Assembly: GCA_964016885.1 (NCBI GenBank)
Contig: OZ024747.1
Span: 41,168,001-41,232,000, forward strand
Reading direction: 5' to 3'
DNA: 64,000 nt
Source of the DNA: Eledone cirrhosa
Lineage: Eukaryota
Part shown: piece after piece, positions 7,246-57,316 of the stretch
Position numbering within the stretch: the stretch's first letter is position 1
Layout: each line of letters starts with the position of its first letter
Made by a program: the position numbers and the translations under genes
The notes under the pieces: model-generated
What the model saw: only the letters and a program-made list of their open reading frames with translations
The model's database searches: none
Told to the model about the DNA's origin: nothing

Positions 7246-7420
7246 CTACCAAAATACACGGTAGTGTCCAATCCGTATGAAGAACTCAATGTAATCCAAA
7301 TATCATGAAAAGAGAAGATGTATTCAAAAGTTTTCGATGAAAATCATAGGAAAAACAGAGTCAAGATAACTTATTAAAAACAATGAATAAAAACAAAGAA
7401 CTTATATTAAAAAATTCATC

Positions 7421-7542
7421 ATTTTACGATCGTTTCTAGGATATATATGTGTGTTGGTATGTATATCATATAGATCTATGTAAAAATATTACAAACTATC
7501 AGAGGAAATATACATACCTACACATATATATGCTGTCTTCAG

Positions 7543-7546
<4 letters not shown>
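7421..7546 (-). ncRNA. Type I hammerhead ribozyme with long stem II
   Basis: Minus strand reads attt CTGAAGA cagcatatatatgt...acatatatatccta GAAAC GATC GTA aaat. Stem III is the palindrome ACGATCGT and the site is GUA. Confidence 0.6.
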
Positions 7547-7580
<34 letters not shown>

Positions 7581-9023: not shown

Positions 9024-9344
<321 letters not shown>

Positions 9345-9353
9345 CACATATAA

Positions 9354-9406
<53 letters not shown>

Positions 9407-9416
9407 AACGAGTAGG

Positions 9417-9511
9417 ACCCCGACGGCTGAGCTCAAGCCGTTTCGACGGCTAATTCTGGACTAAATGAAAATGTTATCCTGGTATTTGAATAGCCGAGCT
9501 TCTCAAGGGGT
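9417..9511 (-). ncRNA. Hammerhead ribozyme, U3-A8 variant (inverted copy)
   Basis: Reverse complement of 10154-10249. Confidence 0.65.
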
Positions 9512-10153
9512 AATTCTATATATGGTAAAAGTGATTGTCACAAGGATTGGTCAAAAGTTTGTTGTTGAGACATAATAATTCTATCATGGCAATTTGTGGA
9601 GGGAAGGGGTAGCTGAACCTGCCAGTAGGAGAAAGGGGGAGAGGGGGTGGAAGAGACCCAGTCATGCGTTGATAGTGCCGACTACAGCTGGGCATGAGGT
9701 CAAAGAAAATACTAGGGAGGGGGAGGGGGCGGAAGTCGAAACAATAAGTAAAACAATATTGGGTAAATATATAGAAAAATACCGAGAGTGTTAAAAAGCA
9801 ATTAAATTTAAAAAAATAAATAAATAAATAAAATAAATATAATTTTTTTTTTTTTTACATTTAATTGCTTTTCAACACTCTCGGTATTTTTCTATATATT
9901 TACCCCATATTGTTTTACTTATTGTTTCAACTTCCTCCCCCTCCCCCTCCCTAGTATTTTCTTTGACCTCATGCCCAGCTGTAGCCGGCACTATCAACGC
10001 ATGACTGGGTCTCTTCCATCCCCTCTCCCTCTTTCTCCTACTGGCAGGTTCAGCTACCCCTCCCTCCACAAATTGCCATGATAGAATTATTATGTCTCAA
10101 CAACAAACTTTTGACCAATCCTTGTGACAATCACTTTTACCATATATAGAATT

Positions 10154-10249
10154 ACCCCTTGAGAAGCTCGGCTATTCAAATACCAGGATAAACATTTTCA
10201 TTTAGTCCAGAATTAGCCGTCGAAACGGCTTGAGCTCAGCCGTCGGGGT
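10154..10249 (+). ncRNA. Type I hammerhead ribozyme, U3-A8 core variant
   Basis: acccc TTGAGAA g..cggcta-ttc...gaa-t-tagccg.c GAAA CGGC ttgagctca GCCG TC ggggt. All three stems pair and the site is GUC. Confidence 0.7.
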
Positions 10250-10340
10250 CCTACTCGTTCCTATTACCCACTCTACTACCCTAGGTATTGAGTACTTTGG
10301 TGCGTTATGGTCCACCTGGTTCCTTACCACATTTCCTCCG

Positions 10341-10394
<54 letters not shown>

Positions 10395-10396
10395 AT

Positions 10397-10628
10397 ATTA
10401 GAAAGTGAGTTTTTTTTTACAAAATGAAAAATAACCGAGGTGTCCTACACGAGTGAAAGTATAAAAAAAAGATGAAATCGAAAATGCAACTGGGGTCTTA
10501 TTTTAAAAAATATATCTCAACTCTACTTTTGAAAAGCAGAAGAACTGCGAAACCGGTAAAGGAACCAAATAAATATATATATTTTTTAAAATAAGACTCC
10601 AGTTGCATTTTCGATTTCATCTTTTTTT

Positions 10629-10633
<5 letters not shown>
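10397..10633. mobile_element. Fold-back element, family B inside (TA)n
   Basis: Inverted arms at ~10460-10515 and ~10575-10635. Homologous to 47122-47490. Confidence 0.7.
10526..10561 (+). ncRNA. Minimal type I hammerhead ribozyme, U3-A8 variant
   Basis: ctt TTGAAAA gcag-aagaa-ctgc GAAA CCGG TA aag. Stem III is the palindrome ACCGGT and the site is GUA. Confidence 0.7.
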
Positions 10634-30014: not shown

Positions 30015-30154
30015 ATTGCTTTTGACAACAGCTGGTGATATGCATGTAAGTAAATATTTTCTTTATCTGATATTTTGTAACTAGCCTTACATAGATCGAT
30101 ATCGAAGTATAGTTACAATGTATTATCATCACCTAGAAACGATCGTAAAGCAGT
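30015..30154 (+). ncRNA. Type I hammerhead ribozyme, U3-A8 variant, long stem II
   Basis: attgctt TTGACAA cagctggtgata...tatcatcaccta GAAAC GATC GTA aagcagt. Stem I is 7 bp including one G-U pair. Confidence 0.6.
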
Positions 30155-31469: not shown

Positions 31470-31474
<5 letters not shown>

Positions 31475-31661
31475 AACAAGTAAGACCCCGACGGCTGAGC
31501 TCAAGCCGTTTCGACGGCTAATTCTGGACAGAATTAGCCGTCGAAACGGCTTAAGCTCAGCCGTCGGGGTCTTACTTGTTCCTATTACCCACTCTACTAC
31601 CCTAAGTATTGAGTACTTTGGTGCGTTATGGTCCACCTGGTTCCTTACCACATTTCCTTCG

Positions 31662-37107: not shown

Positions 37108-37170
<63 letters not shown>

Positions 37171-37173
<3 letters not shown>

Positions 37174-37365
37174 CGAAGGAGGTGTGGTAAGGAACCAGAT
37201 GGACCATAACGCACCAGAGTACACAATACTTAGGGTAGTAGAGTGGGTAATAGGAAAATGTTTAACCCCGACGGCAGAACTCAAGCCGTTTCGACGGCTA
37301 TTTCTGGACCCAAATAGCCGTCGAAACAGCTTGAGCTCTGCCGTCGAGGTTAAACATTTTCCTAT
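37171..37365 (-). mobile_element. Fold-back element family A, diverged subfamily, inside (TA)n
   Basis: Palindrome centred at ~37307. The unique arm is the reverse complement of the family A 3' extension. Confidence 0.75.
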
Positions 37366-40090: not shown

Positions 40091-40185
40091 TATATATATA
40101 TATATATATATAAAGGACGTAAAATAAGAAAATATTTTTTTAAAAAAATTTAAAAAAAAATTTTTTTTTACTTACTTAAATTTTC

Positions 40186-40267
40186 ACTCCAACTAATTAG
40201 TTTCTGCAATGGGATAAAGACAGTTACGTAATACAACTGTCGAGAATTCATTGCGTCATCAGGGAGT
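40186..40267 (-). ncRNA. Type I hammerhead ribozyme (inverted copy)
   Basis: Reverse complement of 41165-41246. Confidence 0.75.
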
Positions 40268-41164
40268 CTATTCTCAGTTAAGTCTCCAGGCAATGCGCGG
40301 ACACTGGCGGCTCATATAAAAATAATAATAATTCGGTAGATCGAACAGCTTGCGAGGACTGGATTCTATGTACCGAAATTCTCACTGCTTCAAGTCAAAT
40401 GGCCGATTCTAAAGAATCAATCACGTGACACAGAGGCTAGTTAGAAGGAATGGGATGGTAAGATGACTGACGCCTACTAACACCCCAAAAAAAATTTTTT
40501 TAGAAGTGGTTTTGACAAGTTTGCTCGACAAATCAGTGATTTGGAGATAAATATAGATAATTTAATATATCAACTAACATAAGCGCACAGATGCACGCCC
40601 ATGCCAGCAAATACACAGGTTATGTCATAGTACCTAGGTGGTTCAATGCAGGAGAATGCAGAACAATAATATAAAGGACGTAAAATAAGAAAATATTTTT
40701 TTAAAAAAAATTTTAAAAAAATTTAAAAAAAAAAAATATTTTCTTATTTTACGTCCTTTATATTATTGTTCTGCATTCTCCTGCATTGAACCACCTAGGT
40801 ACTATGACATAACCTGTGTATTTGCTGGCATGGGCGTGCATCTGTGCGCTTATGTTAGTTGATATATTAAATTATCTATATTTATCTCCAAATCACTGAT
40901 TTGTCGAGCAAACTTGTCAAAACCACTTCTAAAAAAATTTTTTTTGGGGTGTTAGTAGGCGTCAGTCATCTTACCATCCCATTCCTTCTAACTAGCCTCT
41001 GTGTCACGTGATTGATTCTTTAGAATCGGCCATTTGACTTGAAGCAGTGAGAATTTCGGTACATAGAATCCAGTCCTCGCAAGCTGTTCGATCTACCGAA
41101 TTATTATTATTTTTATATGAGCCGCCAGTGTCCGCGCATTGCCTGGAGACTTAACTGAGAATAG

Positions 41165-41246
41165 ACTCCCTGATGACGCAATGAATTCTCGACAGTTGTA
41201 TTACGTAACTGTCTTTATCCCATTGCAGAAACTAATTAGTTGGAGT
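41165..41246 (+). ncRNA. Type I hammerhead ribozyme
   Basis: actcc CTGATGA c-gcaatg...gacagtt..aactgtc...cattgc-a GAAAC TAATTA GTT ggagt. Stem III is the palindrome ACTAATTAGT and the site is GUU. Confidence 0.8.
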
Positions 41247-41725
41247 GAAAATTTAAGTAAGTAAAAAAAATTTTTTTTTTAATTTTTTTTAAAAAAATAT
41301 TTTCTTATTTTACGTCCTTTATATTATTGTTCTGCATTCTCCTGCATTGAACCACCTAGGTACTATGACATAACCTGTGTATTTGCTGGCATGGGCGTGC
41401 ATCTGTGCGCTTATGTTAGTTGATATATTAAATTATCTATATTTATCTCCAAATCACTGATTTGTCGAGCAAACTTGTCAAAACCACTTCTAAAAAAATT
41501 TTTTTTGGGGTGTTAGTAGGCGTCAGTCATCTTACCATCCCATTCCTTCTAACTAGCCTCTGTGTCACGTGATTGATTCTTTAGAATCGGCCATTTGACT
41601 TGAAGCAGTGAGAATTTCGGTACATAGAATCCAGTCCTCGCAAGCTGTTCGATCTACCGAATTATTATTATTTTTATATGAGCCGCCAGTGTCCGCGCAT
41701 TGCCTGGAGACTTAACTGAGAATAG

Positions 41726-41807
41726 ACTCCCTGATGACGCAATGAATTCTCGACAGTTGTATTACGTAACTGTCTTTATCCCATTGCAGAAACTAATTAG
41801 TTGGAGT
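41726..41807 (+). ncRNA. Type I hammerhead ribozyme (tandem copy 2)
   Basis: Matches 41165-41246. Confidence 0.8.
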
Positions 41808-42286
41808 GAAAATTTAAGTAAGTAAAAAAAATTTTTTTTTTAAATTTTTTTAAAAAAATATTTTCTTATTTTACGTCCTTTATATTATTGTTCTGCATTC
41901 TCCTGCATTGAACCACCTAGGTACTATGACATAACCTGTGTATTTGCTGGCATGGGCGTGCATCTGTGCGCTTATGTTAGTTGATATATTAAATTATCTA
42001 TATTTATCTCCAAATCACTGATTTGTCGAGCAAACTTGTCAAAACCACTTCTAAAAAAATTTTTTTTGGGGTGTTAGTAGGCGTCAGTCATCTTACCATC
42101 CCATTCCTTCTAACTAGCCTCTGTGTCACGTGATTGATTCTTTAGAATCGGCCATTTGACTTGAAGCAGTGAGAATTTCGGTACATAGAATCCAGTCCTC
42201 GCAAGCTGTTCGATCTACCGAATTATTATTATTTTTATATGAGCCGCCAGTGTCCGCGCATTGCCTGGAGACTTAACTGAGAATAG

Positions 42287-42368
42287 ACTCCCTGATGACG
42301 CAATGAATTCTCGACAGTTGTATTACGTAACTGTCTTTATCCCATTGCAGAAACTAATTAGTTGGAGT
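42287..42368 (+). ncRNA. Type I hammerhead ribozyme (tandem copy 3)
   Basis: Matches 41165-41246. Confidence 0.8.
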
Positions 42369-42556
42369 GAAAATTTAAGTAAGTAAAAAAAAATTTTTTT
42401 TAAATTTTTTTAAAAAAATATTTTCTTATTTTACGTCCTTTATATTATTGTTCTGCATTCTCCTGCATTGAACCACCTAGGTACTATGACATAACCTGTG
42501 TATTTGCTGACATGGGCGTGCATCTGTGCGCTTATGTTAGTTGATATATTAAATTA

Positions 42557-47121: not shown

Positions 47122-47129
<8 letters not shown>

Positions 47130-47483
47130 GTGAGGTTTTTTTTACAAAATGAAAAATAACCGAGGTGTCCTACACGAGTGGAAGTATAAAGAAAAAGAGA
47201 TGAAATCGAAAATGCAACTGAAGTCTTATTTTTTTTTTAAATATATATATTTATTTGGTTCCTTTACCGGTTTCGCAGTTCTTCTGCTTTTCAAAATTAG
47301 AGTTGAGATGGAGGGTCTGTGGTTTTTCTCACATCTGGTGATGTGAGAAAAACCACAGACCCTCCATCTCAACTCTAATTTTGAAAAGCAGAAGAACTGC
47401 GAAACCGGTAAAGGAACCAAATAAATATATATATTTAAAAAAAAAATAAGACTTCAGTTGCATTTTCGATTTCATCTCTTTTT

Positions 47484-47490
<7 letters not shown>
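47122..47490. mobile_element. Fold-back element family B inside (TA)n; U3-A8 HHR cores at 47262-47297 (-) and 47378-47413 (+)
   Basis: Arms ~47185-47335 and ~47340-47490 carrying TTGAAAA gcag-aagaa-ctgc GAAA CCGG TA. Confidence 0.8.
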
Positions 47491-54870: not shown

Positions 54871-56199
54871 CAATTTGAAAATTTGTCAAATTTGTCATAT
54901 TGACCAAAATAGCATATTCACATGATAGTTGTGGCCCTGTACTCTGGTGAGTTTTACTTCATTTTTCATCTCATATAAGTGGTTGAGCATGCTTTCTTTA
55001 CTTAGCCAGTGAACAAAATCAGAGTCGAAATAAACTCCCAAATTCCACTTTGAGATTTTTCAAAATTATTTTAATTCTGTGTTGTTCGAGTTCTTATTGT
55101 TTCTAAAATGAATACATTTTGCCGTTTTTATCACTTTTCAATCTTAGAAAATACGCGCATAAATTAAGTTGATTAAAGTATTAGAATCCAAATGACGGTT
55201 CTCCAAGTTTGTCTTGGTCAAAGCAACAAGTCTACTTTGAGATCTTATCATAGATGGCAGTACCGTTACGTTTGTCCTCGTGTGCATCGAAATAACTATT
55301 GCTGATTTGACTTCAGAAAAGCATTCTCACCTTTGATACTTCCATCAATTGTTTTGCAATTCACTTCTCGTAAAGTTTACCGTTATACCACGCACAAATG
55401 TAGCCAACTGTGCTGTATTTATCATATCTGTTCCCACTTACAGCTATCGAATAAAACACACATTCTGATTGTATTTGTGTATTGTTAGTCATGTCTTTTA
55501 TAAGATCATTCTCAATAAATCTGACTTTTCCTGGAATTATAATCCTTACAGTGACAACTATATTCTTTAAGAAACACGCTTGCGTGGTTTCACATTTCTT
55601 GCAATTAGCTCACATCTAATAACTTGCGGATATATTTTCCTTAATGTCATTTCAAAATAGATTGCTGTTACATAAAGAATGTTTTTATTTTTATTACTAT
55701 CTTGCCGAAACGTGGGCTCGCTTTCTGTTTGTGTATTCCTTAGGCTAAATAGTGTTCACCTTTTATAAAAGGCAACCGAATGTTTACAATTAAAACACAC
55801 ACTGTTTCATTTATTTCTATTTAAATATAGCTATTTGTCTATTTTTCTTTGGATATAGTATTATTGCCGGCAACAATTTCTTTTCTTTTATCAGTGCTAG
55901 TTGTTGCACTTTACAGTGTTTATTAAACTCTTTAATACAAATAGGGAAACGATACGCCAAATATCAAATATTAATTAGCTGTAAATGAATATGACCTCAT
56001 TAATTTGTACGTATTCCAACTCATGATTAATGTCACAAACATGAAGAAGTTGTTCGTGCCATATGGCAAGAGTGTTGAACATGACACCTATCATCCTCAT
56101 ATACAGCTGCTTCAATCATATTTTGTGCTTTACAATACAATACATTTTTTAATACAAAAATTGTCGATGCTTCTATTTCTTTTACATAATACTAGCTAA

Positions 56200-56790
56200 G
56201 GTAATACACACATCTAGGACCATATACAACACACAGGCAGGCAATACATACATCTAGGACCATATACAACGCACAGGCTGGTAATACATACATCTATGAC
56301 CATATACAACACACGGGCAGGCAATACATACATCTAGGACCATATACAACACACAAGCAGGCAATACATACATCTAGGACCATATACAACACACAAGCAG
56401 GCAATACATACATCTAGGACCATATACAACACACAGGCTGGTAATACATACATCTATGACCATATACAACACACGGGCAGGCAATACATACATCTAGGAC
56501 CATATACAACACACAAGCAGGCAATACATACATCTAGGACCATATACAACACACAGGCTGGTAATACATACATCGAGGACCATATACAACACACAGGCAG
56601 GCAATACATACATCTAGGACCACATACAACACACAGGCAGGCAATACATACATCTAGGACCATATACAACACACAGGCTGGTAATACATACATCGAGGAC
56701 CATATACAACACACAGGCAGGCAATACATACATCTAGGACCACATACAACACACAGGCAGGCAATACATACATCTAGGACCATATACAAC
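56200..56790. repeat. 40-bp minisatellite, ~14.8 copies
   Basis: Unit catatacaacacacaggcaggcaatacatacatctaggac. Confidence 0.95.
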
Positions 56791-57316
56791 AAAAGGCAGG
56801 AGAAAGGGGTGGACAAACAAGCTACTACCAGAGCAAAAGATAGCAATATTACGGGGAGCACTGGGAAACCTCTCTAATAATTTTTTAGGCAAGCCAGTAC
56901 ACTCGCAGCGTTACCTCGGGTGAAGGCGAGGCTAAGGTACTGGAACAACCAAGCGCCCTCACGAGCTTCACCGGTTACCTCTGTAAGGCGAGCCGCCAGT
57001 GAAGATAAGAATCTCGCAGTCAGTAGCCCGACTCCCCCAAACGTCTCGACCGCCACAGGCTGGAAAATATAGTTAGCCAACAGATCACGGTATTTGAGGA
57101 TTTTGTTCTGTTCAGCTATGGATGCTGTGGCTCTCGCCCTTACCGCTGCGTCCAGGATGTGGGAAGAAACCAAAAAGTAACTAACTGTGATGTCCCAGAC
57201 AAGGCATCTGCTTCTTGACCAGGAGCACAGGGTAAGACCGTCAGGTCTTTTCCCGTCAATTCTGGACAACCCAGACGGTTTCAAAATTGAAGGGATGTTT
57301 GCCGGGGCCAAAGCTT
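56791..57316 (-). mobile_element. CRE-clade LINE 3' fragment (REL endonuclease)
   Basis: DGKRPDG..LVWDITV..AEQNK..KY..FQPVAVETFG..RGNAASV. Confidence 0.8.

What the first reader, a model, noticed from the sequence alone, without database searches (positions are those of the whole stretch)
10154..10561. Compensatory U3-A8 hammerhead cores (TTGANAA) in three independent families
Seen: TTGAGAA (10159), TTGAAAA (10529, 47381) and TTGACAA (30022) each occupy the CUGANGA position between a paired stem I and stem II, followed by GAAA, stem III and a GUC or GUA site. Known: positions 3 and 8 form a Watson-Crick pair in the active fold, so a joint C3U and G8A change keeps the pairing. Inference: these are selected functional variants that canonical motif searches would miss, and they may be common in this lineage.
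Basis: partly seen in the sequence, partly recalled or inferred. Interest (0 to 1): 0.75.

Follow-up and report, generated by a model that had tools for sequence, protein, structure and literature searches.

The report
Penelope hammerheads with wandering core pair
These are predicted self-cutting RNA motifs (hammerheads) at the ends of three abundant jumping-gene families; their U-A core pair is an already published variant, and one family kept multiplying for a long time with that pair mismatched, so the pair is likely favoured rather than essential.

Summary
The four TTGANAA sites are real. They are type I hammerhead motifs in the terminal repeats of three Penelope-like retroelement families (F1 10159; F2 10529/47381; F3 30022), each with hundreds to more than 11,000 copies. 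U3-A8 is the family state, not decay: F2 11,625 of 11,772 exact matches; F1 4,676 of 6,193. F3's sister lineage, also in the window (7542, minus strand), carries C3-G8 with covarying stem I, a true paired change. U3-A8 is already in print, in natural hammerheads (PMC3088659) and in Penelope-like elements (PMC4209133), so it is not new. They form a ladder of successive, ORF-selected source elements between older and younger U3-A8 lineages, and the most divergent subfamily sampled is U3·G8 (26 of 29). The pair is likely under weak selection, not strict. Cleavage is untested. The scan noted the same mismatch-then-restoration pattern before, on another piece of this genome (e1-10307551).

The parts
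10154..10249 (+). F1 type I hammerhead motif: stem I 10154-10158/10245-10249, core U3-A8 10159-10165, stem-loop II 10166-10221, GAAA 10222-10225, stem III to 10243, predicted cut after 10244
   Evidence: hammerhead-shaped fold -23.3 vs MFE -24.0 kcal/mol
9837..10342 (+). 5'-truncated F1 Penelope-like terminal repeat with the long tail (10265-10342), ending in (TA)n
   Evidence: two discrete 3' ends about 20 and 100 nt past the cut site
9402..9829 (-). Inverted partner of the F1 repeat, same U3-A8 motif (core at 9506-9500), short end without tail
9024..9212 (.). F1 mini-palindrome holding only the 3' half of the motif (no core); similar ones at 31470-31660 and 37170-37350
10526..10561 (+). F2 minimal hammerhead motif: stem I 3 bp, core U3-A8 10529-10535, stem II 10536-10548, GAAA 10549-10552, palindrome ACCGGT, predicted cut after 10558
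10400..10631 (.). F2 head-to-head end fragment (inverted tailed arm plus direct arm) inside (TA)n
47124..47490 (.). Second F2 palindrome with U3-A8 motifs at 47381(+) and 47294(-); stem I only 2 bp
30015..30154 (+). F3a hammerhead motif: stem I 7 bp, core U3-A8 30022-30028, long stem II opening with C.A, GAAA 30136-30139, palindrome ACGATCGT, predicted cut after 30147
7420..7550 (-). F3b, the sister lineage of F3a, with canonical C3-G8 core (CTGAAGA at 7542)

Best explanation
The sites are hammerhead-shaped motifs in the terminal repeats of three Penelope-like retroelement families whose source elements carry U3-A8 in place of C3-G8; they are predicted to self-cleave weakly after GUC/GUA, and the 3-8 pair is likely favoured by weak selection rather than required. 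Shown: position in the pLTR on the strand of an RT plus GIY-YIG-like ORF, the family-wide core states, and the F3 double change. Inferred: F1 can fold as a monomer; F2 and F3 need a second copy to pair their palindromic stem III; cutting would trim element RNA out of read-through or tandem transcripts, perhaps with help from the element's protein. Inferred: insertion uses RNA uncut at the 3' motif, because copies run intact through the site and end about 20 or 100 nt beyond it. That would let a lineage survive single-step intermediates. In F1 the order is inferred as U3·G8, then U3-A8, then C3·A8, then U3-A8 again (the window copy is in the last group).
For: PLE anatomy: direct repeats 3,057 bp apart round a 695-codon stop-free frame (L031), inverted partners, two 3' ends, (TA)n targets. 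A full-length homologue of the F1 ORF hits Pfam RVT_1 above cutoff. GIY-YIG-like ends lie upstream of F2 and F3 motifs. Core states: F2 11,772 exact matches, 101 non-U3 and 46 non-A8. F1 4,676 U3-A8, 1,433 non-U3 with A8 (92 of 100 listed are C3), 84 non-A8. F3a 98 of 100 listed U3-A8 of 934. F3 anchored on its 3' side only: 22 C3-G8, 4 U3-A8, 0 mixed, 4 without a full core, of 30. N7 takes all four bases across F1 subfamilies (counted by eye), which fixes the register. C3·A8 copies form a ladder under the young U3-A8 clade; holding them as one clade is rejected (AU p 8e-57). Their shared ORF changes fall at third codon positions 44 of 60 against 99 of 246 for singletons (p 5e-6), and they are older (1.8% vs 1.0% private changes). 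U3·G8 in 26 of 29 matches of the most divergent subfamily. In a lizard PLE, dead-ribozyme mutants still insert in vitro (PMC11167929, passages).
Against: No cleavage assay. In a pairwise mutational scan of one type III hammerhead only the G:C swap rescued this pair and all other double mutants were low (PMC9901934, passages), so U3-A8 may be much weaker than assumed. Copy starts did not show a clean peak at the F1 cut site; junctions there coincide with microhomology. My F1 and F2 patterns fixed U4, G5, A6, A9 and GAAA, so their conservation was imposed, not measured. The F1 order rests on 26 and 48 hand-picked rows, a midpoint root and possible recombination between ORF and pLTR. F3 lacks G10.1-C11.1. 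F2 stem I is 2-3 bp.
Confidence: 0.6

Rival explanations
1. U3-A8 is a strictly selected, well-active core; the C3·A8 copies are passengers mobilised by intact elements or rescued in mixed dimers.
For: F2, F3a and a fourth family are 98-100% U3-A8. F3 sisters show only paired states. Family-level association of 3 and 8. F1 returned to a Watson-Crick pair. U3-A8 cores were reported active in vitro (PMC3088659 section 8, citing Przybilski and Hammann 2007).
Against: C3·A8 elements are paraphyletic ancestors of the young clade and show purifying selection on their own ORF. A whole older subfamily is U3·G8. Uniform copies only reflect the source element, not selection on each copy.
Confidence: 0.2
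2. In these families the motif no longer cuts; positions 3 and 8 drift by single transitions, and the fold is kept for another role such as protein binding or setting the reverse-transcription start.
For: Three of the four C/U x G/A states amplified within F1. U-A did not rescue in one mutational scan. Inserts come from uncut RNA, and no read ends were found at the site in a lizard PLE.
Against: No majority-mismatched family among the 15 clusters kept, and F3 sisters differ at both positions with no intermediate seen. F1 reverted to a pair. Stems covary (F3 stem I; F2 stem II variant).
Confidence: 0.18
3. The motifs are chance matches or decayed canonical cores.
For: TTGANAA occurs 94 times in the window; F2 stem I is short; Rfam has no hit.
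Against: Thousands of near-identical copies carry the same core; controls are near zero; the F3 sister has the canonical core in the same place.
Confidence: 0.02

Closest known systems
U3-A8 minimal hammerheads of Schistosoma mansoni Cercyon Penelope-like elements (Cervera and De la Pena 2014, PMC4209133; parts 1-2 of 4 of the text read, supplements not seen)
   Same: Type I motif in PLE terminal repeats, U3-A8 core (about 1,300 hits there), palindromic or absent stem III, mostly solo truncated copies, opposite-strand pairs close together.
   Different: Here at least four families and about 18,000 exact matches. F1 has a stable stem III and a 56-nt stem-loop II; F3 has a long stem II opening with C.A. 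The text read describes no amplified mismatch lineage.
Natural U3-A8 core covariants (Perreault et al. 2011, PMC3088659; section 8 and passages read)
   Same: Same double change, stated there to be natural and active in vitro.
   Different: Not linked there to PLE lineage history; no C3·A8 or U3·G8 lineages in the section read.
PAc hammerhead of the Anolis Poseidon PLE (PMC11167929; passages read)
   Same: pLTR hammerhead upstream of two 3' ends that define a tail; AT-rich targets; uncut RNA as template.
   Different: C3-G8 core, tested in vitro (protein-assisted); the families here are untested.
C-terminal-EN PLE clades Neptune and Nematis (PMC8557442; passages read)
   Same: pLTRs, inverted 5'-truncated partner, one-sided tail, Cys-rich linker before GIY-YIG, (TA)n targets.
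   Different: Clade names for F1/F3 (Nematis- or Hydra-like linker) and F2 (Neptune-like) are by motif only, partly from recall; no reference tree was built.

Membership tests
Type I hammerhead ribozyme | Core U4 G5 A6 N7, A9, G12 A13 A14, A15.1-U16.1, H17 in order between three stems | tested here: met
   All three families; N7 varies across subfamilies
Type I hammerhead ribozyme | Consensus C3 and G8 | tested here: not met
   U3 and A8 instead; a published natural covariant
Type I hammerhead ribozyme | Watson-Crick pair possible between 3 and 8 | tested here: met
   U-A in all window copies; not met in about 21% of F1 copies genome-wide
Type I hammerhead ribozyme | G10.1-C11.1 closing pair of stem II | tested here: inconclusive
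   Present in F1 and F2; F3a and F3b have C.A there
Type I hammerhead ribozyme | Rfam hammerhead model match | tested here: not met
   No hammerhead family at E<=1 in the window, canonical-core motifs included
Type I hammerhead ribozyme | Self-cleavage after H17 | not testable with these tools
   No assay; genomic junction test inconclusive
Minimal PLE hammerhead (Cervera 2014) | Short palindromic stem III requiring a dimer | tested here: met
   F2 ACCGGT, F3 ACGATCGT; monomer fold costs 14.5 and 5.0 kcal/mol over MFE. F1 differs: stable monomer stem III
Penelope-like element (EN+) | Direct pLTRs flanking one RT plus GIY-YIG ORF | tested here: met
   F1: L031, L086; RT by homologue P0092; the F1 ORF itself has no Pfam hit. 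F2 and F3: only EN-end fragments linked upstream
Penelope-like element (EN+) | Inverted 5'-truncated partner and one-sided tail | tested here: met
   F1 and F2; tail not examined for F3
Penelope-like element (EN+) | RT groups with known PLE clades in a reference tree | not tested
   No named reference PLE sequences were in hand

The most novel reading that the evidence does not exclude
One autonomous retroelement lineage preserves a dated, stepwise walk of the hammerhead's core pair (U·G, U-A, C·A, U-A), with about 1,300 copies made over many successive source elements while the pair was broken. It is a natural fitness series showing that Penelope elements spread without efficient self-cleavage, while weak selection pulls the pair back.
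Probability: 0.55. Interest if true: 0.62.

Novelty: new member of a known kind. Interest (0 to 1): 0.42.

Why it matters
The U3-A8 core itself adds only more examples, though about 18,000 exact matches in four families show that CUGANGA-only searches undercount hammerheads in such genomes. The useful part is F1. What the hammerhead does for Penelope-like elements is an open question, and F1 offers four natural subfamilies in nearly the same scaffold that differ at the 3-8 pair, each with a measurable record of amplification. Measuring their cleavage rates would directly test whether self-cleavage matters for spread.

Tried and rejected
Rfam scan: no hammerhead hit. Pfam and PDB searches of the F1 ORF: nothing; the identity rests on motifs and one homologue. 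Protein atlas: not available for either query. Test for copies starting at the F1 cut site: 1,011 matches with three foreign bases before the site, but the 100 listed of 3,190 junction copies were spread over about -20 to +8, and those at the site coincide with microhomology or G-run slips; inconclusive. An endonuclease fragment beside an F2 copy (L082) proved to belong to a C3-G8 family. Row L233 in the tree is likewise not F2's ORF and should be ignored. An alternative F1 register with N7 deleted was rejected because the base after TGA varies freely while the next two A's do not. CpG decay does not explain C3U in any family (no CpG there). The pattern caught only F3a by my error; F3b counts come. 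The F3 constrained fold was mis-set and redone. Clusters dropped before the family count: cl5 (antisense of the cl6 satellite), cl16 (weak, C3-G8 and C3·C8), cl17 (A3·A8, G-U-only stem I; unresolved and against my reading if real). Three primary biochemical papers (PMC1986816, PMC2271363, PMC4447102) were not held, so I have no rates for C3·A8 or U3·G8. Searches for a natural C3·A8 lineage in print found none among the listings; subscription papers and unseen supplements may hold it.

Full report
Observation. The heptamer alone is common, 94 times in the window. The full shape is not: 47 hits in 400 kb of unselected genome against 5 in reversed sequence. Rfam reports no hammerhead in the window, not even the nine canonical-core motifs that my scan found there. 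The genome is an unnamed 3.0-Gb, AT- and microsatellite-rich assembly.

What carries them. F1 lies in a head-to-head pair of truncated repeats (9402-9829 minus, 9837-10342 plus). Elsewhere the same repeat flanks, as direct copies 3,057 bp apart, a frame of about 700 codons with YRDD, a Cys-rich linker and a GIY-YIG-like end. The frame has no Pfam hit itself, but one of six full-length homologues tested passes RVT_1. Copies end at two fixed points about 20 and 100 nt past the predicted cut and sit in (TA)n, the tail signature described for Penelope-like elements (PMC11167929 and PMC8557442, passages). F2 shows the same two ends and palindromes; three long copies lead upstream into a different GIY-YIG-like end that the F1 ORF does not hit. 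F3a and F3b each link to their own endonuclease fragments.

Core states. F2: 11,772 exact matches; 101 lack U3 (the 100 listed all keep A8) and 46 lack A8, leaving 11,625 U3-A8. Stem II variants add 1,039 matches, with 99 of the 100 listed U3-A8. No C3-G8 sister was seen. F3: among 30 loci picked by the 3' side only, 22 were C3-G8, 4 U3-A8, none mixed, 4 lacked a full core; F3a alone has 934 matches, 98 of 100 listed U3-A8. The two lineages also differ by paired changes in stem I and are sisters in an endonuclease tree (97/95). F1: 4,676 U3-A8, 1,433 non-U3 with A8 (92 C, 5 A, 3 G of 100 listed, by eye) and 84 non-A8, of which about 7 are C3-G8 and about 8 are not family cores. N7 was G 53, A 13, T 12, C 7 among 85 true copies of 100 listed (by eye).

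The mismatch phase. About 1,300 F1 copies are C3·A8. On an ORF tree of 26 copies, 12 C3·A8 rows branch off one by one below a young U3-A8 clade, with divergent U3 rows outside; forcing them into one clade is rejected (AU p 8e-57). Changes shared among 14 C3·A8 rows fall at third codon positions 44 of 60 times against 99 of 246 for singletons (p 5e-6), so their source elements had working ORFs; their private divergence is 1.8% against 1.0% for the young group. The most divergent subfamily sampled is U3·G8 in 26 of 29 matches, with no A8, and forms its own branch (100/100) when positions 3 and 8 are masked. The inferred order is U3·G8, U3-A8, C3·A8, U3-A8; the window copy belongs to the last group. 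The root is by midpoint and age, the rows were hand-picked, and ORF and repeat may recombine.

How common, how independent. Of 19 motif clusters seen at two or more loci, 11 are C3-G8, 4 are U3-A8 (F1, F2 and two more), 1 is mixed (F3) and 3 were set aside (see Tried and rejected); Fisher p 7e-4, or 1.6e-4 with F3 counted as two lineages. F1-F3 were targeted, and families are not independent. In 800 kb of unselected DNA 4 of 54 tandem-collapsed hits were U3-A8 and 41 C3-G8; the score threshold disfavours F2. A fourth family has 586 matches, 100 of 100 listed U3-A8. F2's origin is likely separate. For F1 and F3a the tree prefers two origins, or one origin and a reversal, but a single clade was not rejected (p 0.066).

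Mechanism. F1 folds into the hammerhead shape within 0.7 kcal/mol of its best fold; F2 and F3 cost 14.5 and 5.0 kcal/mol as monomers and have palindromic stems III suited to dimers. From established knowledge (recalled), G8 contributes to catalysis through its 2'-OH while its base pairs with C3, so a U-A pair can keep the fold. Print is divided on how well: active in vitro according to PMC3088659 (section 8, citing a paper I could not open), low in the one pairwise scan, where only the G:C swap rescued (PMC9901934, passages). Minimal PLE hammerheads cut poorly in vitro (PMC4209133), and a lizard PLE inserts from uncut RNA even with a dead ribozyme. Here too copies run intact through the 3' site. 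A weak, helpful but non-essential cut fits all of this (0.6). Strict selection (0.2) does not fit the C3·A8 ladder; a purely vestigial motif (0.18) does not fit the paired states between families and the return to a pair.

Known or new. I found no printed report of an amplified C3·A8 lineage in three searches; one 2026 preprint on retrozymes has no mention of the core (10.64898/2026.07.22.740005, one passage). The scan's own notes already hold the mismatch-and-restoration pattern for another piece of this genome and a similar walk in another genome; I reached the C3·A8 result before reading them. Verdict: new members of a known kind, interest 0.42, lifted by F1 as a ready natural test series.

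Noticed in passing
window 40108-42420: 561-bp tandem repeat with an inverted copy; each unit has a canonical CTGATGA hammerhead motif (40262 minus; 41170, 41731, 42292 plus), retrozyme-like.
   Followed up: partly
window 31274(-), 44357(+), 44942(-)/45091(+), 48319(-): Further canonical C3-G8 type I motifs of three more repeat families; the window holds at least 16 hammerhead-shaped motifs. The mirror copy of 48319 reads CTGGTGA (A6G).
   Followed up: partly
L262-L280 (e.g. G000:C3:181729873-181733249): A very young C3-G8 Penelope-like family: 40 of 40 scored copies about 100% identical over the ORF end, frames open for at least 625 codons; likely recently active.
   Followed up: partly
L018, L102 (cluster 19): Fourth U3-A8 family, 586 exact matches, copies often about 320 bp apart; may be the 316-bp repeat of note e1-10315689.
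   Followed up: partly
L013 (cluster 18) and L204:7641: Two more U3-A8 candidates, one seen at 3 loci and one once; not counted genome-wide.
   Followed up: no
L128, L166 (cluster 17): Recurrent motif with ATGARAA (A3, A8) and good stems II and III but a G-U-only stem I; either a mis-registered core or a mismatched family.
   Followed up: no
F3a and F3b, window 30029/30135 and 7535: Both lineages keep CAGC after A9 and CTA before GAAA, giving a conserved C.A apposition at 10.1/11.1 and a C.C mismatch inside stem II.
   Followed up: partly
L123 (G000:C3:190000001-190010000): 310-bp head-to-head satellite arrays with a canonical hammerhead motif in each unit.
   Followed up: no
window 56199-56800: 40-bp minisatellite, 15 copies, 92% matches.
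   Followed up: no
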